This document shows, piece after piece, positions 27,033-49,773 of a stretch of DNA of 55,713 nucleotides; the first letter of the stretch is position 1; every line of letters begins with the position of its first letter. Both the position numbers and the translations under genes were made by a program. The notes beneath the pieces are model-generated. The model saw only the letters and a program-made list of their open reading frames with translations. It was not told the DNA's origin and ran no database searches. Origin of the DNA: Acidobacteriota bacterium (lineage in GTDB: Bacteria; Acidobacteriota; Terriglobia; Terriglobales; Acidobacteriaceae); assembly GCA_021828835.1 (NCBI GenBank), contig JAJZCY010000001.1, forward strand, positions 1 to 55,713. Direction: 5' to 3'.

Positions 27033-27102
27033 ACACATATTGTAGGGACCCCGGAAGCGGGGAACAAGGAACCGGCGCACCAAGAGTTGCGGAAGCCGCC
27101 CT

Positions 27103-27175
27103 GTTCCCTCGTTCCCTCGTTCCCTCGTTCTCTCATTCCCTTGTTCCCTAGTTCCCTCGTTTCCCTCATTCCCTG
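27103..27175. repeat. Degenerate tandem 8-mer (GTTCCCTC), about 9 units
   Basis: gttccctc x3, gttctctc, attccctt, gttcccta, gttccctc, gtttccctc, attccctg in the tlpA/kdsD divergent region. Confidence 0.9.
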
Positions 27176-31555: not shown

Positions 31556-33991
31556 ATGGTAGTGAAGATCAAATTTGCACGGCCCACAGGGCATCATTCC
31601 GCACTGAAGGTAGCGCTGCTGGTCGCCGCCTCCGCCTTCGCTTTGTGCGTGCTGGCCGGCGTTTCGGTCTTCACCTACTACTACTTCGCCTATAAGAGCG
31701 TTGTGGACAAGCGGCTCAGCCAGCCCTTGTTCGCCGACACCGCCAAGATCTACGCCGCGCCCCGCGAGGTGCGCCCCGGCCAGAAGCTGCCCATCAAGCT
31801 GATCGCCAGCGAGCTAAGCCAGGCCGGCTACACCACCACCGGAGCGGTGCAGCCCTCGCCGCTTGGCACCTACACCCTTCACGGCCAGTCCATCACCGTC
31901 AGCCCGGGCCCGCAGTCCTACCACGCGCCCGATGCCGCCACCATTCATGAAAGCGGCGGCGTGGTCGATTCCATCATCGATGCGAAAGGCCAGCAGCTCT
32001 CCAGCTATGAGCTGGAGCCGCTTCTTATCACCGGCCTCAGCGCCGGCACCCACCGCATCAAGCGCCGCCTCGTCACCTACGACGAGATCCCGCACAACCT
32101 CGTCAACGCCGTCGTCGCCATCGAAGACCGCCGCTTCTTTGAGCACAACGGTGTGGACCTGCACCGGATGTTCGGCGCCGCCATCAACGACCTCGAGCCC
32201 GGACATCGCTGGATCGAGGGCGGTTCCACCCTCACCATGCAGTTGGCGCGCGGTTTCTTTCTCACCCCCGCCCGCCGCATCAAGCGCAAGATCATCGAGA
32301 TCGCCATCACCTTCCAGCTGGAGCACCGCTTCACCAAGCAGCAGATCTTCCAGATGTACGCCAACGAGATCAACCTGGGACAGCGGGGCAGCTTCTCGAT
32401 CGACGGCTTTGGCGAGGCCGCGCAGGCCTACTTCGGCAAGGACGTGCGCCAGCTCAGCCTGCCGGAGTGCGCTCTGCTGGCGGGCATGATCCAGAGCCCC
32501 AACCGCCTCAACCCCTTCCGCCATCCCCAGCGCGCCATCGACCGCCGCAACCTGGTGCTCGACTCCATGGTGGAGACCGGCGCCATCACCAAAGAGCAGG
32601 CGGAAGCCGCCAAGCTGGAACCGCTGCACCTGGCCCCCGGCAGCGTCGACGCCAGCGAGGCCCCCTACTTCGTGGACCTGGTCCATGACCAGTTGATCCA
32701 GAAGCTGGGCGACCGCGACTTCAACCGCGAAGGCCTGCGCATCTACACCTCGCTCGATCCAGACCTGCAGCGCGTGGCCACCGAGGCGGTTGCCGCCAGC
32801 ATGCATTCCATCGATCAGGAAGTGGACAGATTGCATGCGCGCGACCGCAAGCTGGGCCGCCCCTACGTCTATCCCCAGGTGGCGCTGGTGGCGCTGAACC
32901 CCCACACCGGCCAGGTGCTGGCCCTGGTTGGCGGCCGCAACTACGGAGCGTCGCAACTGGACCATGCCGTGGCGCAGCGGCCCACCGGATCCACCTACAA
33001 GCCATTCGTCTACGCCGCCGCATTCCAGACCGCGATTGAAGGCACCCTGCTGCCCGGCCAGACCAAGCTCTTCTCGCCCCTCACCATGCTCAACGATACG
33101 CAGACCTCGTACGATGTGGGCGATAACCAGGTCTACACGCCGCGCAATTACAAGAACGAATACTACGGCGACATCAGCGCCCGCCTGGCCCTGATGCGCT
33201 CCGATAACAATGCCACCATCAGCCTCGGCGCCATGGTCGGCTTCGATCGGGTGGCGGCGCTGGGCCGCGCGGCCGGAATCGTGAACGCGCGGGGAACGCC
33301 CTCGGTGGCCATCGGCTCCTACGACGCCACGCCCTTGCAGGTGGCGGGCGCCTATACAGTCTTCTCCAATGGCGGGGTGCATCTCGAGCCGTGGATGCTG
33401 GCCAGCGTCCGTACCCCGACCGGCGACATCGTGGCCGACTACGCGCCCCAATCCAAAACCGTGCTGGATCCCCGCGTAGCCTTCCTGACCACCAGCATGA
33501 TGGAAGATGTGCTGCGCGGCAACGGGGGCGACCCCTGCGAGATGGGCGGAAGGGATTACTGCGGCACCGGCGCGGTGGTGCGCAACATGGGTTTCAGCGC
33601 TCCTGCGGCCGGCAAGACCGGCACCGATCACGACGCCTGGTTCGCGGGCTTTACCTCCAACCTCATCTGCGTGGTCTGGGTGGGCAACGACGACTACACC
33701 GATATCAAGATCGAAGGCGCTCATGCCGCGGCGCCCATCTGGGCCAGCTTCATGAAGGCCGCCACCGCGCTGCCGGCCTACTCCGACACCAAGGACTTCA
33801 CCGCTCCCGATGGCGTCCAGATCGACAGCATCGACAAGGTGACCAACCTGCTCAGCGACAACGCCTGCCCCGATGCCTACGAAGCCGCGTTCCTCGACGG
33901 CACCGCTCCCACCGACTACTGCGACCACCAGAACAAGCGCCCCAACCTCTTCGAGCGCATGTTCGGGCTGGGCAGCAAGAGCGGAAACTAA
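31556..33991 (+). CDS. Class A penicillin-binding protein (PBP1B-like)
   Basis: TM anchor; transglycosylase motifs (EDRRFF.H.G, GGSTLTMQL, Y.N.I.LG); transpeptidase STYK, SDN, KTG. Confidence 0.93.
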   Translation: MVVKIKFARPTGHHSALKVALLVAASAFALCVLAGVSVFTYYYFAYKSVVDKRLSQPLFADTAKIYAAPREVRPGQKLPIKLIASELSQAGYTTTGAVQPSPLGTYTLHGQSITVSPGPQSYHAPDAATIHESGGVVDSIIDAKGQQLSSYELEPLLITGLSAGTHRIKRRLVTYDEIPHNLVNAVVAIEDRRFFEHNGVDLHRMFGAAINDLEPGHRWIEGGSTLTMQLARGFFLTPARRIKRKIIEIAITFQLEHRFTKQQIFQMYANEINLGQRGSFSIDGFGEAAQAYFGKDVRQLSLPECALLAGMIQSPNRLNPFRHPQRAIDRRNLVLDSMVETGAITKEQAEAAKLEPLHLAPGSVDASEAPYFVDLVHDQLIQKLGDRDFNREGLRIYTSLDPDLQRVATEAVAASMHSIDQEVDRLHARDRKLGRPYVYPQVALVALNPHTGQVLALVGGRNYGASQLDHAVAQRPTGSTYKPFVYAAAFQTAIEGTLLPGQTKLFSPLTMLNDTQTSYDVGDNQVYTPRNYKNEYYGDISARLALMRSDNNATISLGAMVGFDRVAALGRAAGIVNARGTPSVAIGSYDATPLQVAGAYTVFSNGGVHLEPWMLASVRTPTGDIVADYAPQSKTVLDPRVAFLTTSMMEDVLRGNGGDPCEMGGRDYCGTGAVVRNMGFSAPAAGKTGTDHDAWFAGFTSNLICVVWVGNDDYTDIKIEGAHAAAPIWASFMKAATALPAYSDTKDFTAPDGVQIDSIDKVTNLLSDNACPDAYEAAFLDGTAPTDYCDHQNKRPNLFERMFGLGSKSGN

Positions 33992-33992
33992 G

Positions 33993-34041
33993 GTAGCGCC
34001 GGTCTCCTGACCGGCAGGAGTGAGGGTCTCCAGACCCTCAC
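33993..34041 (+). repeat. GTAG/GGAG-footed REP pair
   Basis: GTAG-CGCCGGTC-TCCT-GACCGGC then GGAG-TGAGGGTC-TCCA-GACCCTCAC; first unit nearly identical to 46498. Confidence 0.8.
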
Positions 34042-34045
34042 CGTC

Positions 34046-34078
34046 TCACCCATCCACATCACGCCCATCGGGCATCGG
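34046..34078 (-). pseudogene. Stranded duplicate of the nei 3' end (PMPDGRDVDG*)
   Basis: 27/33 nt identical to 34389-34421 (RMPDGSDVDG*), including the stop codon. Confidence 0.8.
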
Positions 34079-34164
34079 GCAGGTGGCCCGGTCAAATTCA
34101 TCGTTTCATGGTCGCATGACTTAGAGTGCCCAAGCCGCGCCGTTTGCGGCTTGGGTGGGAAAGC
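34079..34164 (+). mobile_element. Head-spacer-hairpin REP-like element
   Basis: GCAGGTGGCCC, 34 nt, GAGTG-CCCAAGCCGC...GCGGCTTGGG-TGGGAAAGC. Confidence 0.7.
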
Positions 34165-34338
34165 AGCGCCCTTCGCCCTTCTTCAATCCCACTCCCTCCG
34201 GCAGTTGGTTTTCCCGCCGCCGGGCAGAGCGGCCGATTCCGAGCGCGTGGACTTGTGAAAGCTGATTTGCGCGAAGCATACGCGACGATCGAATGGGGTC
34301 AAAGTTGCTTTTTTCTGAAATGTGAGCCGCATCACGCC

Positions 34339-34377
34339 GGATGCCCCAGGTCTCGATTCTGAGACCTGGGAGAGCAC
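34339..34377 (+). repeat. Hairpin module of the REP-like family
   Basis: GGATGCCCCAGGTCTCGATTCTGAGACCTGGGAGAGCAC; core identical to 47718. Confidence 0.85.
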
Positions 34378-34388
34378 CATCCGTCTCC

Positions 34389-35246
34389 TCACCCATCCAC
34401 ATCCGACCCGTCCGGCATCCGCTGGCAACCTGGGCACCAGAAAGTCACCCGCGCAGCCTCGCCCTGCATGCGCCGCCGGATTGCCTCGCCGCAGCGGCGG
34501 CAGGGCTGGCCGGCACGTCCATAGACCCACACGCTTTCTGCCGGATCGGAGCTGTGTGTCGTCCGCCGCCCGCGGCCCATGTAGGTGACCCTGCGGTCGC
34601 CGGAGTCCCACAGCACATTGGCCCCCACCAGTTTGCGCGCCGCGGCGATCACCGCCTGCACCTGCTCTGCGCTCAGCGATGCCACCGGACAGAAGGGATG
34701 AATGCCGGTGACGAAGCAGATCTCCGATTTGAACTCGTTGCCCACGCCCGCCAGCACCCGCTGATCCAGCAGCACATCCGCGATCGCCTCGCCTGCGCGC
34801 GCCACCAACCGGCGCGTCACCTCCTGCGCATCGAACTCCCCGCGCAGCACATCCGTCTCCTTCGCCGGAATGCGCGCATGCCGTGCCAGCGACTCCGCCG
34901 TATGCATCTCCGCCACCGGCACCTTGAAGCCCACCGCCACATACTCGCTGTTTTCAATCAGGATGCGCATGTCCAGGCGCGACTTGAACCAGCGCTCGCC
35001 GTGCCGGTAGAGGTGCCAGCTTCCGTTCATCAGCATGTGCGTGGCCAGCGTGGCGCCGCCGGAGAAGTGGATGAGCAGCCACTTGCCACGCGCCTCCACG
35101 CTCTCCACCACGCGCCCCGTGATCGCCGCATCGTCATGGAAGCGCGTCAGGTTTGGATACGTGGAGCGGAACACCGTGACCGGCTTACCACCCAGAGCGC
35201 GGTCCAGCGTCCTGGCGGTTCGAAAGATGGTATCGCCTTCAGGCAT
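34389..35246 (-). CDS. nei: Fpg/Nei-family DNA glycosylase (endonuclease VIII-like)
   Basis: N-terminal MPEGD, RGK.LL, H2TH (LLDQR.LAGVGN..KSE), zinc finger CRRC...CPGCQ. Confidence 0.92.
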   Translation of the reverse strand: MPEGDTIFRTARTLDRALGGKPVTVFRSTYPNLTRFHDDAAITGRVVESVEARGKWLLIHFSGGATLATHMLMNGSWHLYRHGERWFKSRLDMRILIENSEYVAVGFKVPVAEMHTAESLARHARIPAKETDVLRGEFDAQEVTRRLVARAGEAIADVLLDQRVLAGVGNEFKSEICFVTGIHPFCPVASLSAEQVQAVIAAARKLVGANVLWDSGDRRVTYMGRGRRTTHSSDPAESVWVYGRAGQPCRRCGEAIRRRMQGEAARVTFWCPGCQRMPDGSDVDG

Positions 35247-35279: not shown

Positions 35280-38200
35280 TCACTGCACATCTCCCGCGTG
35301 CGCATCGCGCGAGTGCCCCATCGGCAGCGGAATCCGCCGCAACTGCATGCCCAGCGGCCCAGGATGAAATCCCGCATCCATCAGAAAGCGCGCCATGCAA
35401 TTCGCCGCCACCGGCTGGCCGTTCACCGTCGTGATCAGCACGCCCTCATGCGGATGCGCGCGCATGCGCTCCTGCCCGCGGCTGCACAGGAAGTGCGCCA
35501 GTCCCGCGGCCACCTGCGACCGCTCCGGCTCCTCGGCCGGCAAAAATACCAGCACATGCGGATTGCCGCGCCTGAGCCACGCCACTAACTGCCCGTTGCG
35601 CAGAACCACCTCCGCGTAGGCGGCGCGCGTCAGCACCCGCGGCGCGGACTCCACATCCTCCTCGGCCACCGGCAGATCGGGCCAGCGCAACACCGACCCA
35701 TACGGATTCGCGGGATCGCTCGCCGCCAGCGATACAAACTCCGGCTTCTCCGCCGAGGGTGCGGTGCGCAACTGCCGCAGCAGATCCACCGCCGCAGGCA
35801 GCGCAAACTGCGTGGCGCCCAGGCCCGCCACAAAGTACCCGCGCCGAATCCGCCCGCTCTCTTCCAGCGCCTTCAGCACATCGTACACGGCACTGAAGCC
35901 GCCAGGCACATTCTCCGCCGCCACCATCTCGCGCAGCAGCACGCCGTACCGGCTCAGAAGCTGCATCGCCAGCGCATGACTGGCCTCGGTTGTCGATCGA
36001 GAGTCCGCTGCATGCAATGCCGACCAACGGCCCTGCGCATTGGGCGGGGTCGTTCGCCGCGAGCGAAACACCATCCCCGTCTGCGCACGTCGAGGCGTGC
36101 GCGCGCTCTCCGGCCGCGCAATGTAGGCGCGCAGCGCGTGCAGCGAATCGTTGCTGACCAGCCCGCGCCACACCAAGCTCCACAACGCCTCAATCGTCTC
36201 GCCCGGGTAGCCGCCGCCCACCGCCTGATGCAGCGGGTCGAAGAAGTTCGCCCCATTCGATCTCAGCACATCCAGAATCTTCTCTTCGCGCTCGCTCAGC
36301 GGCTCTGTCTGCGGCCGCCTCTGCGCCAGCAGCGGCAGCTTGTCGGCGAGAAACAGCGCAATACGCCCATCGCGTTCGCCAATCGGCTCCACGCCCGCCC
36401 ACGCCACCTCGCCCGCGGCAATCAGCGTGTCCAGTCCCGCAGGCGCGTAGTCCGCAATCCGCGCCGGCAAAATCGCGCTCTCCAGCAACGACGCGGGCAG
36501 CGGCGCTCCCTGCAAATTGTCAATCGCATCCAGCAGCGCATCCAGATGCGCCGGCCCCCCGCGCCGCGGCGTCAGGATTCCCTGCCAGTGCGTGAGAAAG
36601 CGCGCCAGCGTGTGCTGCTCCACCGGCTCGACTTCGCGCCGCAGCCGCGCCAGCGACTTGCGCCGGATCTGGCGCAGAATCTCCGCATCGCACCACTCGC
36701 GGTGGATGCCACCGGGCAGAAATCCGCCTTCCAGCACCCGCCCCTCGCGCGCCAGCAGTTGCAGCACGTTCTCAACGGCCTCGCTATCCAGCCCGAAGCG
36801 CTCCGCGGCCTCGCGCACGGTAAACGGCCCGTGCGTCCGCGCATAGCGCCGCACCAGTTCCAGCACCGGGTGCGCCACCGGCTCTAGCAGCGCCACCGCC
36901 AGGCCCGGCGGCAACGGAATCCCCAGCGCATCGCGATACCGCGCCGCATCCTCGGCCGCAACGTAGCGCTTTTCCCCGGCAACCCGCAGCTCCAGCACGC
37001 GGCGCGCGCGGATCAACCGCGGCAGCGACTCCAGCACCGCCGCATCCACCACCCGGCGCGCCAGCTCGGCCTGGGACAGATCGCCCAGCTTCAGCAGCAG
37101 ATCGTGCACACCATCCGCCGAGCGCGCACGCAGATTGTCCGCCAGGGACTGCGCCGCCTCTTCCACCTCGGCAATCGCGTTCGGGTCGAGCAGTTCGCGC
37201 AGGTCCGCCTCGCCCAGCAGCTCGCGCAACTGCTCCTGGTCGATGGTCAGCGCCTGCGCGCGCCGTTCGGCCAGCGGCGCGTCGCCGTCATACACAAAAT
37301 TCGCCACGTAGCTGAACAGCAGCGATGAAGCGAACGGCGAGGGTTTGCGCGTATCCACCACGTGCACCCGGAGCTTCCGCTCTTCTATCTCCTTAAGGAT
37401 CTCAATCAGGGAAGACATGTCGAAGACGTCGCGCAAACACTCGCGGTACGCCTCCAGCAGCAGCGGAAACGACGGATACCGCGAGGCCACGCTGAGCAGG
37501 TCGTAGGATTTTTTGCGCAGCTGCCACAGCGGCGAGCGCTGATCGGCGCGGCGGCGCGGCAGCAGCAGCGCCCGTCCGGCCGCCTCGCGAAAGCGGCCAG
37601 CGAACAGCGCCGTCGAGCCAAGCTGGCGCAGCACCAGTTGCATCGCTTCCGCCGACTCGACGAGGATCCAGTCGGAGTCCGGCGGTTCGTCCGTATCCGG
37701 AAAGCGCAGCACAAAACCGTCGTCGCCCCACAGCGCCTCCACCTCCGGACCGCCCGCGGCGCGGATGCGCGCGCTCACCGCCATCGCCCAGGGAATGTGA
37801 ATGCGGCTGCCAAAGGGCGTCAGCACGCAGACGCGCCAGTCGCCGAGCTCGTCGCGCGTTCTTTCAATCACGATGGTGCGATCGTCGGGAATCTGCCCGG
37901 TGGCTTCGGCCTGGTCGGCCAGAAAACGCAGCAGATTCTCCGCCGCGCCGGGATCGAGATCGTGCTCCGCCACCAGGCGCGTGAGCGCCGCCGGCGCGGG
38001 CAACGCGCGCAGCTCGCGCACCATCGCGCCGATGCGACGGCCGAACTCGAGCGGCCGGCCCGGCCCGTCGCCCTTCCAGAACGGCATCTTGCCGGGCTCG
38101 CCCGGCGCCGGCGTCACCGTCACGCGATCGTGCGTGATCTCCACGATCCGCCACGTGGAAGCGCCGAGAATAAACGTCTCGCCCGGGTGCGACTCGAAGA

Positions 38201-40274
38201 CCATCTCCTCGTCGAGCTCGCCCACCCGCACCGTCTTGCCCTCGGTGTAGGCGAGAAAAACGCCATAGAGGCCGCGGTCGGGAATCGTGCCCGCATTCAG
38301 GATCGCCAGCCGCGCCGCGCCCTCGCGCGCCGTGACCACGTTGCGAATGCGGTCCCAGGTCAGCCGCGGCCGCAGCTCCCCAAACTCATCCGAGGGATAT
38401 CGGCCGCTCAACAGATCGAGCACGCCTTCGAAGGCCGAACGCATCAACCCGCCAAACGGCGCCGCCCCGCGCACCAGATCGAACAGGTAATCGACTGAGA
38501 CTTCAGCAGGAGCGAACTCAGCGCTGTTAGCGGAGTTATAGAAGCCGGGTGCCCCAGGTCCCCCGCGTTTGGGGACCTGGGAAACCACAGCCGTGGATGC
38601 GCGATCTCTCGTCTCTGGTCTATTGTCCTTAGGCGCTGTCTTCTTGTTCCCCCGTTCCCACGTTGCCTTGCCCCCTGCCGCGGCGACAATCGCCACCAGC
38701 TGCTGCGCCAACACGTCCAGCGGATTGCGCGGGTAACGCGTCGACTCGATGTGGCCCTCGTGCATGGCGCGCGTCACCGCCGCGCAGGCCACCAGATCGG
38801 CGCGGTACTTCGGAAACAAAATCCCCTCGCTCACCGCGTCTACACTGTGCCCCGCGCGGCCGATGCGCTGCATGCCGCTGGCCACAGAAGGCGGCGACTC
38901 GATCTGAATCACCAGGTCCACCGCGCCCATATCGATGCCCAGCTCCAGCGTGGAAGTGGCGCACAGCGCGCGAATCTGCCCGGCCTTCAACTGCTCCTCG
39001 ATGACCGCCCGCTGCGCCGCCGCCAGCGAGCCGTGGTGTGCCCGCGCAATCGGCTCACCGGCCAGTTCGTTGAGAGCGCCCGCCAACCGCTCCGCGATCT
39101 GCCGCGAATTCACGAAGAGAATCGTCGAGTTGCGCGCGCGAATGATCTCCAGCAGCCGCGGATGAATCGCATTCCAGATGGAGACGCGCTTGGGCGCTTG
39201 CGAGGCCGGTCCCGACGGAATCTCCTCCAGTTCGCCCAGCCGCGCCATGTCCTCCACCGGCACCTCGATGTGCAGCTTGAGCTGCTTGCGCGCCGAGGCA
39301 TTGACGATGGTCACGGGCCGGTAACGCAGCGCCTCCGCCGATTGAACTGGAACCGAAGAATCAGGAACCGGGGAAGCAATGGAATGAGCGGCCATTGAAG
39401 CATCCGGCCCATCGCTCAGTTTCTCGTCGAGCAACGCCACCAGATCGGGCGCATCCGATCCCTGATCCCTGACCCCTGATCCCTGTTCTCTCGTTCCCTC
39501 GTTCTCTCGTTCCCTTGTTCCCTGTACTTCCACCCCGCCCAGGAACCGCGCCACCTCTTCGAGCGGCCGCTGCGTGGCCGAGAGCCCGATGCGTTGCAGC
39601 GGCTTCCCCGTGAGTGCCTGGAGCCGCTCCAGCGTCAGAGAAAGATGCGCACCGCGCTTGGTAGGCACCAGCGCATGGATTTCGTCGATGATGACGGTAT
39701 CCACGGTGCGCAGCGCCTCCGCCGCCTGCGAAGTCAGGATCAGGTAGAGCGACTCCGGCGTGGTGATCAGAATCTCCGCCGGCTGCCGGGCAAAGCGCGC
39801 CCGCTCACGCTGCGGCGTGTCCCCGGTGCGCACCGCGATCTCCGGCTCGTGAAACGGCACCCCCATGCGCCGCGCCATGTTGGCGATCCCCGCCAGCGGC
39901 GAGCGCAGGTTCCGCTCCACGTCCACCGCCAGCGCCTTCAGCGGCGAGACGTAGACGATGCGGCAGCCCTTGCTCTCTTTGTCCCTGTGTCCCTTTGTCC
40001 CTTTGTCCCTGGCTTCTTGTTCCCTCGTTCTCTTGTTCCCTTGTTCGCTGTTGTGCAGCATCAGCCGGTTCAGGCACCACAGAAACGCGGTCAGCGTCTT
40101 GCCCGTCCCGGTCGGCGCCAGGATCAGCGCATTCTCCCCGCGCGCGATCACCGGCCAGCCCATGCGCTGCGGAGCGGTGGGGGCGTCAAAGACGGCGCGA
40201 AACCACGCCGCCGTCACCGGGTGAAACGCGGCAAAGGGATCCAAGGGTTCCGAAGGGTGGGAAGGCCGGCTCAT
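35280..40274 (-). CDS. lhr: Large Lhr helicase with C-terminal glycosylase-like/HTH domains
   Basis: APTGTGKT, SPLKALA.D, TTPESL, DEIH, SAT, HHGS, TSTLELGID, QRIGRAGH, GTIPDRG; 1664 aa with several low-complexity inserts. Confidence 0.95.
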   Translation of the reverse strand: MSRPSHPSEPLDPFAAFHPVTAAWFRAVFDAPTAPQRMGWPVIARGENALILAPTGTGKTLTAFLWCLNRLMLHNSEQGNKRTREQEARDKGTKGHRDKESKGCRIVYVSPLKALAVDVERNLRSPLAGIANMARRMGVPFHEPEIAVRTGDTPQRERARFARQPAEILITTPESLYLILTSQAAEALRTVDTVIIDEIHALVPTKRGAHLSLTLERLQALTGKPLQRIGLSATQRPLEEVARFLGGVEVQGTRERENEGTREQGSGVRDQGSDAPDLVALLDEKLSDGPDASMAAHSIASPVPDSSVPVQSAEALRYRPVTIVNASARKQLKLHIEVPVEDMARLGELEEIPSGPASQAPKRVSIWNAIHPRLLEIIRARNSTILFVNSRQIAERLAGALNELAGEPIARAHHGSLAAAQRAVIEEQLKAGQIRALCATSTLELGIDMGAVDLVIQIESPPSVASGMQRIGRAGHSVDAVSEGILFPKYRADLVACAAVTRAMHEGHIESTRYPRNPLDVLAQQLVAIVAAAGGKATWERGNKKTAPKDNRPETRDRASTAVVSQVPKRGGPGAPGFYNSANSAEFAPAEVSVDYLFDLVRGAAPFGGLMRSAFEGVLDLLSGRYPSDEFGELRPRLTWDRIRNVVTAREGAARLAILNAGTIPDRGLYGVFLAYTEGKTVRVGELDEEMVFESHPGETFILGASTWRIVEITHDRVTVTPAPGEPGKMPFWKGDGPGRPLEFGRRIGAMVRELRALPAPAALTRLVAEHDLDPGAAENLLRFLADQAEATGQIPDDRTIVIERTRDELGDWRVCVLTPFGSRIHIPWAMAVSARIRAAGGPEVEALWGDDGFVLRFPDTDEPPDSDWILVESAEAMQLVLRQLGSTALFAGRFREAAGRALLLPRRRADQRSPLWQLRKKSYDLLSVASRYPSFPLLLEAYRECLRDVFDMSSLIEILKEIEERKLRVHVVDTRKPSPFASSLLFSYVANFVYDGDAPLAERRAQALTIDQEQLRELLGEADLRELLDPNAIAEVEEAAQSLADNLRARSADGVHDLLLKLGDLSQAELARRVVDAAVLESLPRLIRARRVLELRVAGEKRYVAAEDAARYRDALGIPLPPGLAVALLEPVAHPVLELVRRYARTHGPFTVREAAERFGLDSEAVENVLQLLAREGRVLEGGFLPGGIHREWCDAEILRQIRRKSLARLRREVEPVEQHTLARFLTHWQGILTPRRGGPAHLDALLDAIDNLQGAPLPASLLESAILPARIADYAPAGLDTLIAAGEVAWAGVEPIGERDGRIALFLADKLPLLAQRRPQTEPLSEREEKILDVLRSNGANFFDPLHQAVGGGYPGETIEALWSLVWRGLVSNDSLHALRAYIARPESARTPRRAQTGMVFRSRRTTPPNAQGRWSALHAADSRSTTEASHALAMQLLSRYGVLLREMVAAENVPGGFSAVYDVLKALEESGRIRRGYFVAGLGATQFALPAAVDLLRQLRTAPSAEKPEFVSLAASDPANPYGSVLRWPDLPVAEEDVESAPRVLTRAAYAEVVLRNGQLVAWLRRGNPHVLVFLPAEEPERSQVAAGLAHFLCSRGQERMRAHPHEGVLITTVNGQPVAANCMARFLMDAGFHPGPLGMQLRRIPLPMGHSRDAHAGDVQ
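38547..38588 (+). repeat. REP-like hairpin inside the lhr coding sequence
   Basis: GGGTGCCCCAGGTCCCCCGCGTTTGGGGACCTGGGAAACCAC versus intergenic 47841 GGGTGCCCCAGGTCCCCCGCTTCTGGGGACCTGGGAGACCAC. Confidence 0.9.
39457..39524. repeat. (GATCCCT)x4 plus (GTTCYCTC)x5 degenerate tandem repeats inside lhr
   Basis: Read directly; encodes part of QGTRERENEGTREQGSGVRDQGS. Confidence 0.85.
39979..40048. repeat. (TTGTCCCT)x4 plus (TTGTTCCC)x4 degenerate tandem repeats inside lhr
   Basis: Read directly; encodes part of SEQGNKRTREQEARDKGTKGHRDK. Confidence 0.85.
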
Positions 40275-46630: not shown

Positions 46631-47551
46631 ATGAGTCCAACCAGAAGAGGCTTTGTAAAGATGAGTCTGGCAACACTGCCCGTTGCCGGGCTTTTGAGTG
46701 GCAGCGATTCCCCTGCCCTGGCCAGCGGCCAGGGAGCACCCGAGACTCGATCGAGCGAGATCCTTCTCCAAGAGATCCAGGACCACCGCCAGGGCACCGC
46801 CGTCTGGTGGATGGGCAATTCCGGCTGGCTGATCAAGTCGGGCGACCTGCTGTTCGCCTCCGACCTCGACCTCGAGGCCGACAGCCGCGAGTATCCCAAG
46901 ATCCATCCTCCGCCGTTATCCCCGCAGCAGTTGGCCGGCATTCTGGACGTCGAGTTTGTCACCCACCAGCACGGCGATCATTGCAATGTGCCCACCATCC
47001 AGGGACTCGCCCAGGGAACCCGCACCACCTTCGTCCTGCCGCAAACCTGCGTTCGAGAGGTGGCCTCGCTGAACATCCCCAAGGAGCGGATCGTCGTTCC
47101 CGAGCCTTTGCAGCCCTTCGACATCAAGGGCATTCACGTGGAGCCCATCCATGCCATTCACGGCAATCAGGAGTTCACGGTGCTGACGCGCGAACCTGAC
47201 TTTGTCGACAGCATCGCGCACAACTGCGGTTACGTCTTCACGATCGGAGGCAAGCGCTTCCTCGAGCCTGGCGACTCGGTGCTCACCGAAGAGCACCTGA
47301 ACCTCAAGAACATCGATGTGCTGTTCGTCTCGCCCACCATCCACAACATGTACACCGACCGCTCCATGATTCTCATCAACCAGTTGCAGCCGTCTTACAT
47401 CTTTCCCCAGCACTTCGGCACCTACCAGGTGCGGGACGATATCGCGTTCTGGACGCGCGGCTACCCGGAAGAGCTGAAGATGAACCTCTCCCAGAACCTG
47501 CAAAGGCGCTACCACCAGCTCAAGATCGGCGACAAGTTCGAGATCGTGTGA
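46631..47551 (+). CDS. Tat-exported MBL-fold metallo-hydrolase (UlaG-like)
   Basis: TRRGFVK twin-arginine signal; WWMGNSG, THQHGDH, GYV, GDS, PQHF. Confidence 0.82.
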   Translation: MSPTRRGFVKMSLATLPVAGLLSGSDSPALASGQGAPETRSSEILLQEIQDHRQGTAVWWMGNSGWLIKSGDLLFASDLDLEADSREYPKIHPPPLSPQQLAGILDVEFVTHQHGDHCNVPTIQGLAQGTRTTFVLPQTCVREVASLNIPKERIVVPEPLQPFDIKGIHVEPIHAIHGNQEFTVLTREPDFVDSIAHNCGYVFTIGGKRFLEPGDSVLTEEHLNLKNIDVLFVSPTIHNMYTDRSMILINQLQPSYIFPQHFGTYQVRDDIAFWTRGYPEELKMNLSQNLQRRYHQLKIGDKFEIV

Positions 47552-47587
47552 GCGGGGAACAGAGAGCAGGCGTCAGGGATCGATGTT

Positions 47588-48529
47588 GAGACCTGGGAGA
47601 CCAACGCTCTACTGGCGCGCAAGCGCCCCAGAGCCTGTCGAAAGCGCACGCACAAAAAGTTCTGTGTCAGGGCACGGCTTCAGCCGTGCCGCAACCGCCC
47701 GCCCAACCACCACCTCTGGGTGCCCCAGGTCTCGATTCTGAGACCTGGGAAAGCTCCAACCTCTCGGGGCAGGTGGCCCGCTCATCGGTCCCAAAGGCGG
47801 GTGGCCCGGGTCTGAGGATGCGCCCCCAACCACCACCTCTGGGTGCCCCAGGTCCCCCGCTTCTGGGGACCTGGGAGACCACGACTCTCTCCCCGGCACA
47901 GCCGTAATCCAGGCAGGTGGCCCGGCCATGAATTAGCCGAAAACGCCGAGTGCCCCATCCATTCACAGTTTCATCGTGAATGGGTGGGAGACCACGAACC
48001 TCTGTCAGGTGGGCGGATGGCGCACCTAGCTTTTGGGCGGGTGGCGCACCCTAAGTGTTTGCAATCTCGATAGGCCCACAACTGGGGGGGGCAGGTGGCC
48101 CAGTCATCGGTCCCAAAGCCGGCACCCATCCGCTCAGGGCTGTGTCCCGTTCCTCGCGTTTTTGCGATGAGCGGGCGATGGAGCCTCGTGCCTCCCACTC
48201 AAAACGCAAAGAACGCGTTTTGAATGGGCCACGGACGATCATGCCAGTATGAAGTATGAAGGACTTGAGCAGGCCACCTGCCACTCAGGGCTGTGTCCCG
48301 TTCCTCGCGTTTTTGCGATGAGCGGGCGATGGAGTCTCGTGCCTCCCACTCAAAACGCAAAGAACGCGTTTTGAATGGGCCACGGACGATCATGCCAGTA
48401 TGAAGCGTGAAGGACTTGAGCAGGCCACCTGCCCCTTTTTCTTTCCTCCAGGCCCGCGGGTGCCCCAGGTCCCCCGCTTCTGGGGACCTGGGAGACCACG
48501 ACTCTCTCCCCGGCACAGCCGTAATCCAG
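47588..48529. mobile_element. Nested array of REP-like head/hairpin elements, including a 151-bp tandem duplication and an identical 72-bp repeat
   Basis: Heads at 47769, 47797, 47913, 48091, variants at 48013 and 48037, reversed heads ending 48281 and 48432; hairpins at 47718, 47841, 47948, 48140, 48458; 47841-47912 equals 48458-48529; 48131-48281 nearly equals 48282-48432. Confidence 0.85.
47666..47691 (+). repeat. GTCAG-GGCACGGC-TTCA-GCCGTGCC palindromic repeat (separate family)
   Basis: Perfect 8-bp stem with a TTCA loop. Confidence 0.65.
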
Positions 48530-48639
48530 CAAGGCCAACAAAACTGAGGCTCGACAAGTGACTCGGCCTGTTGGCAACATCTCTTGCTTGATTGGATATG
48601 GACTGCGGAGATTACTTCATTGGTCTACACTGACAGTCA

Positions 48640-49773
48640 ATGATTGGAATCGATTCAACTATTTGCATCTACTGCAAGAATCATGGCTTTTCGAAAGAGC
48701 ATGTCGCCCCGTTTTCACTAGGCGGGAACTGCACGATCAAGTGCGTCTGCAAGGATTGCAACGGAAAACTGTCATCGGTCGATCAATCGCTTGCAGAGAA
48801 CTCGCCCGTCGCGCTTTCGAAGGTCGGCATGACACCTACGGCTGCGTTTGGAACCCAGTTGGGAACGATTGCCACCATGCGAGATCAAAGAGGGTTCGAT
48901 TTGGGTGTCCGGATCGGCAACCAGATGACTGTGGAGGTCCGGCCGCAAATCTTCCTTCGCGGGAACCAGTTGAGCATCAGTTGCCCCGACCGACAAGGTA
49001 TCCAAAAACTAGTTCGATATATAGACGATCAAATCAGAAAAGGAAGTTTGGCGGACGTTCATCAAAGGATCACACCTGATACTATTGCTCCCCGCTTCAT
49101 GATGCACAGGAGCGATGCCGCCGTTGTCGACGCGGCCTCTTCGGAAGAGGCCAGCAAACTTCTTGCGGTTATCGAAAAGAACTGGCCGGATGTGAAAACG
49201 ACGCTCGAAAAGCCAGACGCCGGAGAAGTGGTCAAGCAGGCTACCCCAAGTGTTCTCATCAAAATGGTGATGAAGCCAAATGAAGAGTACCGGGGTGTGG
49301 CGAAGATCGCTCTTGAGACAACGGCACTCCTGCTGGGCCCAGAATTCGTCCTGCGCGACACGTTAGATCCCATTCGTGAATATATCTTGGGTGACGTCCG
49401 TCTGCCAGTGATCGATGGTGATACCCCTGACCAGTTGGCTATTGACGCTCGGTTCGTAGAAAGAGTTCCAACCGAGAACTCATTTGACTTTACTGACCAG
49501 CACGGAGTGATCCTGTTCCATGAACCTCAGCATGGGCTTGCAGCGCTCGTGGTGCTTTATGGAATGCATCATTATAAGGTTAGGCTGGCGCCGCCGATGG
49601 ATCGAAGCTCTTGGGTGCGGCATTATGAATTTAGTTACACCAAGGATGGTCATAGAGAGCTGAGTGAACTAGACTTCGCGCGGCGGGCTTTGGAACGATT
49701 TCCTCACCTTCTCAAGATCGATCCAGGCATAGCCACAAAGATGTTGGAGGCTCTCAAAGGGGAAACTCGGTGA
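48640..49773 (+). CDS. HNH-type endonuclease (HNH_5-like N-terminus, uncharacterised C-terminus)
   Basis: CIYC...EHVAPFSLGG...VCKDCNGKLS zinc/HNH motif; clearly lower GC than the flanks (26/60 at 48661-48720). Confidence 0.75.
   Translation: MIGIDSTICIYCKNHGFSKEHVAPFSLGGNCTIKCVCKDCNGKLSSVDQSLAENSPVALSKVGMTPTAAFGTQLGTIATMRDQRGFDLGVRIGNQMTVEVRPQIFLRGNQLSISCPDRQGIQKLVRYIDDQIRKGSLADVHQRITPDTIAPRFMMHRSDAAVVDAASSEEASKLLAVIEKNWPDVKTTLEKPDAGEVVKQATPSVLIKMVMKPNEEYRGVAKIALETTALLLGPEFVLRDTLDPIREYILGDVRLPVIDGDTPDQLAIDARFVERVPTENSFDFTDQHGVILFHEPQHGLAALVVLYGMHHYKVRLAPPMDRSSWVRHYEFSYTKDGHRELSELDFARRALERFPHLLKIDPGIATKMLEALKGETR

What the first reader, a model, noticed from the sequence alone, without database searches (positions are those of the whole stretch)
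34046..34421. nei 3' end appears replaced: old tail stranded exactly at an element head
Seen: 34046-34078 (minus) encodes PMPDGRDVDG*, while the intact nei ends RMPDGSDVDG* (34389-34421). They are 27/33 nt identical, and two of the differences are synonymous third-position changes (CCC/CCG, GAT/GAC). The relic stops at 34078 and the head GCAGGTGGCCC begins at 34079; 310 nt with two hairpins separate it from the current stop. Inference: this is not a simple target duplication but two alleles. Incoming DNA (head, hairpins, nei tail from a relative) was joined at the head on one side and resolved by homology inside nei on the other, leaving the gene intact. dprA in this window is compatible with ssDNA uptake but does not prove it.
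Basis: partly seen in the sequence, partly recalled or inferred. Interest (0 to 1): 0.8.

Follow-up and report, generated by a model that had tools for sequence, protein, structure and literature searches.

The report
Transposase scar joining two gene alleles
A second, diverged copy of the last ten codons of a DNA-repair gene sits exactly at the end of a small repeat element in an Acidobacterium, and the same kind of junction recurs across its genus, likely because a repeat-associated transposase cut at a fixed G^C site and stitched two strains' versions of the locus together, which would be a rare genomic footprint of how these repeats spread.

Summary
In detail: 34046-34078 matches the nei end at 27/33 (next best in the genome 22/33) and stops at the head at 34079. 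It is not unique. The head is the end of a REP/RAYT (Y1 HUH transposase) element, and the 302-nt insert holds a decayed RAYT 3' end. Of 375 such heads (own genome and genus), 40 have upstream DNA repeated downstream and ending at the head (27 exactly). The downstream copy reads G^C there in 33 of 40, the site the published guide rule predicts for these hairpins' GTGC foot. Nineteen are full head-to-G^C tandem duplications, as in Ton-Hoang's amplification model; nei is a relic-only case. Two alleles are favoured: contigs from two studies carry the empty allele with the relic's exact left junction and two relic-type bases, the differences sit at naturally variable positions (P=0.011), and two further gene-end relics have relic-free filled alleles in relatives. 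Not shown: which side was incoming, one step or two, the DNA route. A phylogenetic switch in nei is only hinted. New variant of a known system.

The parts
31556..33991 (+). PBP1A-family gene (mrcA-like), convergent with nei
   Evidence: Pfam Transgly + Transpeptidase; TIGR02074 just under cut-off
33993..34041 (+). GTAG-footed REP pair (two hairpins); also present in the empty allele
   Evidence: fold; about 30-35 similar hits in the genome; the 30 letters before 34381 in X5 and X6 contigs equal window 34011-34040
34041..34078 (-). Relic nei tail: 10 codons, stop and 5 nt behind it; ends on the G of a G^C site
   Evidence: relic-type G at the 34413 and 34420 equivalents in the empty allele (read from summed depths)
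34079..34089 (+). Type-A head, the 5' end of the RAYT/REP element and the junction
   Evidence: same head upstream of the intact RAYT on contig C332; junction statistics
34126..34156 (+). REP hairpin with GTGC foot, shorter than the best copies (decayed)
   Evidence: fold and alignments to RAYT flanks
34129..34247 (-). Remnant of a RAYT gene 3' end (82% to C332:128-216 over 34129-34217)
34248..34335 (.). Unique spacer of unknown origin
   Evidence: 34165-34338 has no match at E<=1e-8 in 400 of 400 genus genomes searched; single copy in own genome
34337..34377 (+). Second, high-copy REP hairpin (type C; foot changed to ATGC)
   Evidence: 44-61 genome hits per position; fold
34381..34422 (-). 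Working copy of the tail; G34421^C34422 is the junction site seen in the relic
34389..35246 (-). Intact Fpg/Nei-family glycosylase gene (285 aa)
   Evidence: Pfam PF01149, PF06831; best NCBIfam endonuc_Nei2, below cut-off
35280..40274 (-). lhr helicase gene upstream of nei
47841..48529 (+). Second case in the window: 72/72-nt direct repeat (47841-47912, 48458-48529) ending at the head at 47913, downstream copy G^C

Best explanation
The relic is the left half of a junction likely made by a REP-associated tyrosine transposase (RAYT), which is inferred to have joined a REP-free allele of the mrcA-nei spacer, cut at a G^C site 38 nt into the shared sequence, to the head of a REP-carrying allele of the same locus from another strain, while homologous recombination would have closed the other side. 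Shown: the two tails, the exact head junction, the G^C bias at 40 such junctions, an intact RAYT with this head, the empty allele in two studies. Inferred: RAYT binds the single-stranded REP hairpin by its GTGC foot, nicks 5' of the head and stays on the head's 5' end through its tyrosine; a 3'-OH ending in G at a G^C site attacks that bond. When the 3'-OH comes from a fresh copy of the same molecule the product is a head-to-G^C tandem duplication (19 of 40); when homology has paired two different alleles, the product is [empty-allele flank + 20-230 nt stub][head ... element][full allele], as here.
For: Anchoring: of 375 unique type-A heads (359 from relatives, 16 own), 82 have an upstream/downstream repeat scoring >=18; 40 end within -6..+4 nt of the head (27 at 0), 13 run through it, 29 end elsewhere between -16 and -117; control anchors at the REP foot give 3 of 42 (Fisher p=3e-8). 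Site rule: G^C in 33 of 40; given G, the next base is C in 33 of 34 against 0.44 expected; one case per genome gives 15-17 of 21 (p<=0.011). Passages of Messing 2012 (PMC3479197) and Corneloup 2021 (PMC8266576): foot base 4 sets the 5' base and foot base 3 the 3' base of the cut (GTAG gives C^T; GTGG gives CC; GTAC gives GT/GA), so GTGC predicts G^C. Enzyme: C332 encodes a 193-aa RAYT over the NF047646 cut-off (108.7 vs 80) with this head upstream. Two alleles at nei: contigs in X5 (soil) and X6 (wastewater) join the same REP pair to one tail; they keep the 3 nt that the relic lacks but have the relic's G at both readable positions; the six differences fall on positions that vary among 28 natural tails (exact P=0.011; none in 15 near-invariant positions, P=0.017). 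Other loci: at C334 a gene-end relic (41/44) lies at a type-C head and G318 has head, hairpin, spacer and tail without relic; at L222 a gene-start relic matches the working copy at 45/52 in the coding part but 35/68 in the leader, and G006 has the filled allele without relic.
Against: No relative with the filled nei allele lacking the relic was found. Four of six differing positions could not be read in the empty allele. No clear phylogenetic switch: 34389-34538 is as far from G318 as from G284 (22 vs 21 of 150), but in a sliding scan the overlapping window ranks 9 of 102 and unrelated stretches are more extreme; nei is about 2.6-2.8 times more diverged than mrcA against both X5 and G318, so the X5 contrast (12/126 vs 18/488) may be regional rate; X5 shares three derived bases with the window at 34428-34431, so a donor was not distant. 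The head-side bond reads G^G, not G^C, in type-A junctions (unexplained). Messing 2012 saw no in-trans cooperation for the E. coli enzyme. Three of the six nei differences are one codon, so the P values rest on about four events. The small tree for L222 does not place the relic with REP-free alleles. Relatives' heads were picked with a pattern requiring the G before the head and from head-rich genomes; kin and arrays are not independent. Both REP copies in the insert are decayed.
Confidence: 0.58

Rival explanations
1. Two steps, each known: RAYT first made an in-cis head-to-G^C tandem duplication of [element + tail] (Ton-Hoang model B); later the first copy's element was removed, by recombination with an empty allele crossing inside the 38-nt repeat or by deletion. 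The junction is still RAYT-made, but no trans reaction is needed.
For: 19 of 40 anchored cases are full duplications and 11 more have a first copy that starts at a head; fits the cis-only behaviour reported for E. coli TnpA_REP; recombination with an empty allele would also give the exact native left junction and relic-type bases.
Against: Needs a crossover within about 38 nt, to the right of 34420 or before that base changed; deletion alone would have to restore the exact empty junction, and the relic's left edge is not a G^C site at nei, C334, L140, L222 or L241; the L222 leader is too diverged (35/68 against 45/52 coding) for a recent copy.
Confidence: 0.22
2. A long target-site duplication: the element came from elsewhere in the same genome, its head was joined at G^C, repair copied about 38 nt, and the two identical copies then drifted.
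For: Short near-perfect repeats around simple inserts exist (23/23 at L140, 26/27 at L241, 31/31 at C157); the empty allele is the expected pre-insertion state.
Against: A neutral copy should take most changes and at random positions, but the relic keeps the empty-allele base at both readable sites and conserved codons are untouched; no source copy of the insert in the genome (best 75-82%; genome 88% complete); at C334 and L222 relatives hold the element at the same place without duplication.
Confidence: 0.13
3. Remnant of an integrative element that replaced the nei 3' end with its own copy (attL/attR-like), later mostly deleted.
For: A diverged in-frame gene end flanking an insert is the usual sign of such elements (own knowledge).
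Against: No integrase or island sequence between the copies, only REP/RAYT debris; the junction obeys the head/G^C rule seen at unrelated loci.
Confidence: 0.03
4. Assembly artefact of two strains, or chance resemblance to REP sequence.
For: No listed contig piece bridges 34160-34342; REP stems contain a similar CCCATCC motif.
Against: The truncated tail and the head lie on one difference-free contig; 27/33 against a background maximum of 22/33; 40 junctions with one rule in 21 genomes.
Confidence: 0.02

Closest known systems
E. coli REPtron: TnpA_REP (RAYT) with REP/BIME; amplification model B of Ton-Hoang et al. 2012 (PMC3333891, passages read)
   Same: Y1 HUH enzyme beside hairpin REPs; nick, 5'-phosphotyrosine, attack by a 3'-OH from a downstream dinucleotide site gives a tandem unit; capture of flanking gene fragments was proposed there. 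The 19 full duplications match this model.
   Different: Foot GTGC and site G^C instead of GTAG and C^T; a fixed head upstream of the hairpin marks the 5' end; relic-only junctions between two diverged alleles of a host gene were not in the passages read.
Group 3 TnpA_REP guide rule (Corneloup et al. 2021, PMC8266576; Messing et al. 2012, PMC3479197; passages read)
   Same: The cut dinucleotide is complementary to foot bases 4 and 3; applied to GTGC it gives the observed G^C.
   Different: Shown there in vitro with engineered feet; here it is a natural foot with genomic junctions, untested biochemically; the head-side bond (G^G) does not follow the rule.
Acidobacterial TIRYT/TIRtron group (Di Nocera et al. 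2013, PMC3733652, section 16 read)
   Same: Tyrosine transposases of Acidobacteria flanked by long inverted repeats that form repeat families, dimers and clusters; L181 shows head-REP-gene-REP-head.
   Different: No cleavage site, duplication or target analysis in the text searched ('duplicat', 'target site', 'GTGC' 0 hits); I did not compare the proteins with the named ORFs.
Homology-facilitated illegitimate recombination (de Vries and Wackernagel 2002; seen only as titles in a reference list; content recalled)
   Same: One side resolved by homology, the other by a non-homologous joint.
   Different: The joint here is sequence-programmed (head plus G^C, 1 nt shared) and leaves a stub of the second allele, not a microhomology deletion.
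IS200/IS605 peel-and-paste transposition (described in passages)
   Same: Single-strand chemistry and guide-directed site choice.
   Different: The protein is below the IS200 cut-off (45.6 vs 55); flanking repeats of 20 to over 500 nt instead of none.

Membership tests
RAYT/REP (REPtron) system | Y1 HUH transposase of the TnpA_REP family in the genome | tested here: met
   C332 and C256 proteins score 108.7 and 108.2 on NF047646 (cut-off 80); HVH and YIHxNP motifs
RAYT/REP (REPtron) system | Gene flanked by hairpin repeats that recur in intergenic DNA | tested here: met
   C332 flanks; head pattern in 242 of 401 genomes, reversed control almost absent; inverted arrangement in L181
RAYT/REP (REPtron) system | Conserved GTAG/GTGG tetranucleotide 5' of the hairpin | tested here: not met
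   The foot next to the stem is GTGC; GTGG occurs in the head. Hence a variant, not the canonical GTAG class
RAYT/REP (REPtron) system | Cleavage at a dinucleotide set by the foot, and strand transfer | not testable with these tools
   Genomic junctions agree (G^C 33 of 40); no biochemistry
Acidobacterial TIRYT/TIRtron | Tyrosine transposase between long inverted repeats in Acidobacteria | tested here: met
   L181 structure; record titles of the closest tail matches name Acidobacteriaceae/Terracidiphilus
Acidobacterial TIRYT/TIRtron | Clustering with the named ORFs and the GGGGWSAS motif | not tested
   Named proteins not fetched
IS200/IS605 | TnpA_IS200 transposase; insertion without duplication | tested here: not met
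   NF033573 below cut-off; long repeats at junctions
Homology-facilitated illegitimate recombination | Homologous anchor plus foreign tract; joint at short microhomology; DNA taken up by transformation | tested here: inconclusive
   Foreign tract in nei only hinted; joint is rule-bound; dprA and a ComEC-family fragment present, uptake untested
Integrative element replacing a gene 3' end | Integrase and cargo between attL and attR | tested here: not met
   302 nt of REP/RAYT debris only

The most novel reading that the evidence does not exclude
RAYT acts as an allele-splicing enzyme: during homologous DNA exchange between strains it cuts the REP-free strand at a guide-selected G^C and ligates it to the REP head, so REP elements, whole RAYT cassettes and cargo genes (inserts to about 1.4 kb) home into empty orthologous loci in one step without breaking the neighbouring gene, leaving frozen stubs of the other allele. 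This would be a horizontal, homing-like route for repeats held to be vertically inherited.
Probability: 0.35. Interest if true: 0.85.

Novelty: new variant of a known kind. Interest (0 to 1): 0.66.

Why it matters
How RAYTs spread REPs inside cells is stated as unresolved in the passages read. These Acidobacteria give dozens of natural junctions with one fixed end and one predictable dinucleotide: support from genomes for the 2012 amplification model, a natural test of the guide rule with a new foot (GTGC to G^C), and a relic class that points to joining between strains. Substrate, cut site and product are all specified, so an oligonucleotide assay can test it directly. The nei relic itself has no evident function; its value is as a record of mechanism.

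Tried and rejected
Phylogenetic switch against G318/G284: inconclusive. Unlinked contigs in X3 and X5 are about 99% alike on both flanks and 90-96% in 34450-34800; they may be different organisms, so a hint only. Search for the filled, relic-free nei allele or the insert's spacer: none in 400 genus genomes, 10 metagenome stretches or 3 genome stretches, each with one tail match. First genome-wide repeat filter (copy number <=3) dropped the nei case itself and was replaced; the scan missed C334, which one search found. G318's 16 head matches (many in coding DNA) gave no anchored repeat. Type-C heads rarely show repeats (1 anchored of 58) and type-B 3 of 67; GTAG heads none of 65 at score >=14. 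C334 follows the G^C rule only if the relic's last codon is read as an Ala allele (common in relatives); it is not in the 40. L215 (possible antitoxin-end relic) is weak and not counted. RAYT excision of a first copy rejected because relic left edges are not G^C. Depth hole at 34223-34293 in all four runs proves nothing. Literature searches for this junction type found no description; two returned off-topic papers; the library lacks most subscription journals, and supplements (for example Ton-Hoang Fig. S7) were not read and may bear on novelty. Earlier-findings look-ups were empty.

Full report
Observation. The stretch 34046-34078 on the minus strand encodes PMPDGRDVDG* and the end of the intact 285-aa Fpg/Nei gene (34389-35246) encodes RMPDGSDVDG*; 27 of 33 bases agree. 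Over both strands of the whole assembly nothing else exceeds 22 of 33. The match continues 5 nt past the stop, the relic lacking 3 nt, so the repeat is about 38 nt and 302 nt (34079-34380) lie between that belong to neither copy. One contig of run X1 spans the relic/head junction without a difference; the middle of the insert is not bridged by a listed piece. The closest tail matches in public genomes carry Acidobacteriaceae/Terracidiphilus titles.

What the insert is. The head, a GTGC-footed hairpin and 34129-34247 resemble the 3' end and flank of a REP-associated tyrosine transposase: 82% to contig C332 over 89 nt. C332 encodes an intact 193-aa RAYT (NF047646 108.7 bits, cut-off 80; IS200 model below cut-off) with the same head upstream. 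Then come about 90 nt without match in 400 genus genomes and a high-copy type-C hairpin. The nearest relative G318 (about 92% alike) has one tail and different REP/RAYT debris, 1040 nt, in this spacer, so the spacer collects such elements.

The junction is one of a class. In the own genome, DNA just upstream of a head recurs downstream at C241:47913 (72/72), C157 (31/31), C334 (41/44) and in tandem arrays. I gathered 359 further type-A heads from relatives (one search counted 939 matches in 242 of 401 genomes; I took head-rich genomes and listed places). Of 375 unique heads, 82 have an upstream/downstream repeat scoring at least 18: 40 end within -6..+4 nt of the head (27 at 0), 13 run through it, 29 end elsewhere. 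Anchors at the REP foot give 3 of 42. At the break the downstream copy reads G^C in 33 of 40. The G is partly ascertained, since the search pattern asked for a G before the head (unselected own heads: 15 of 16), but the C is not: 33 of 34 after G against 0.44 expected, and 15-17 of 21 with one case per genome. The nei site is G34421^C34422. Passages of Messing 2012 and Corneloup 2021 give the rule that foot bases 4 and 3 set the bases 5' and 3' of the cut; GTGC predicts G^C. The head-side bond reads G^G in type-A junctions, which the rule does not explain.

Two products. Nineteen of the 40 are full duplications from head to G^C, the product of model B in Ton-Hoang 2012 (passages). Eleven have a first copy that starts at a head and an extra insert; ten, nei among them, are stubs without head by the script's test (some of these stubs are REP sequence). 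Three stubs are clearly ends of host genes: nei, the C334 gene end (type-C head, not in the 40) and the L222 gene start.

Two alleles at nei. It keeps the 3 nt that the relic lacks, so it is not a deletion hybrid of today's copies, yet has the relic's G at 34413 and 34420 (read from summed depths; the other four positions are not listed). The six differences lie at positions that vary among 28 natural tails (exact P=0.011) and avoid 15 near-invariant ones (P=0.017), as expected of two working alleles and not of a decaying copy; three of them are one codon, so the test is thin. At C334, G318 has head, hairpin, spacer and tail without relic, and the upstream gene of the own genome ends at a length seen in relatives. 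At L222 the relic agrees with the working copy at 45/52 coding bases but 35/68 leader columns, and G006 has the filled allele without relic; the small tree there is unresolved.

What speaks against or stays open. No filled, relic-free nei allele was found. The last 150 nt of nei are as far from G318 as from the distant G284 (22 vs 21), but the overlapping window ranks 9 of 102 in a sliding scan, and nei is about equally accelerated against X5 and G318. X5 shares three derived bases with the window just right of the junction. Unlinked X3 and X5 contigs are near 99% on both flanks and 90-96% in the 3' half of nei, a hint for an imported nei end. At C334 and L222 the nearest relative is filled, so there the stub may be the incoming side. 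The E. coli enzyme did not cooperate in trans, which favours a two-step route: duplication in cis, then recombination with an empty allele. dprA and a ComEC-family fragment are present but do not show the route.

Mechanism and odds. RAYT-made junction about 0.85; two alleles about 0.75; best explanation as a whole 0.58; two-step rival 0.22; long target duplication 0.13; integrative remnant 0.03; artefact 0.02. It works like an E. coli REPtron and resembles the acidobacterial TIRtrons of Di Nocera 2013 (section read), but has a GTGC foot, a fixed head and allele-stub junctions. Eight searches and passages of ten papers showed no description of these junctions; supplements were not read. Verdict: real, a new variant of a known kind, and a direct handle on the open question of how RAYTs spread REPs; interest 0.66.

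Noticed in passing
G000 C334:1666-1820 (L088): Second gene-end relic in this genome: the last codons of a metallo-beta-lactamase-fold gene are repeated (41/44) at a type-C head 105 nt away; G318 has the element there without relic.
   Followed up: yes
G000 C157:16225-16399 (L089): Perfect 31-nt repeat ending at a type-A head, downstream copy G^C; the repeat itself starts with a head-like motif.
   Followed up: partly
window 47547-48640: Large mosaic REP array with several heads, a 151-nt tandem pair (48117-48418, 94%) and the 72-nt repeat, in front of an HNH_5 gene (48640-49773).
   Followed up: partly
L035 (G318 mrcA-nei spacer): 1040-nt spacer with its own RAYT 5' and 3' remnants in the other orientation: this spacer is a repeated target.
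   Followed up: partly
L181, L165 (G080), L480 (G232): A whole head-REP-RAYT-REP-head cassette (936 nt), an AT-rich cargo ORF (1149 nt) and a 1376-nt insert, each bounded by a repeat ending at head and G^C; suggests that RAYT cassettes and cargo move this way.
   Followed up: partly
L192-L210 (G267), L226 (G211), L274 and L278 (G311): Serial truncated duplications that run from the head into the RAYT gene itself and stop at successive G^C sites.
   Followed up: partly
L031:113-698: The RAYT reading frame runs through its downstream REP hairpin; the last residues are encoded by the repeat.
   Followed up: no
L032 (G000 C256): A second RAYT with different flanking hairpins in 141-nt tandem units on both sides.
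   Followed up: no
window 27088-27167, 39470-39525, 39988-40059: Pyrimidine-rich repeats of about 8-nt period; two of them lie inside the lhr frame.
   Followed up: no
L215 (G182): Possible diverged stub of an antitoxin-like gene's 3' part before a head, 619 nt upstream of the working copy; weak.
   Followed up: partly
run X3, piece on 34447-34601: 2 differences in the first 68 nt and 14 in the next 87: a mosaic nei in a sample of the same study.
   Followed up: no
type-A junctions generally: The product has G-G at the head where a G^C cut on both sides would give one G; the head-side cut seems fixed 4 nt before the GTG motif.
   Followed up: partly
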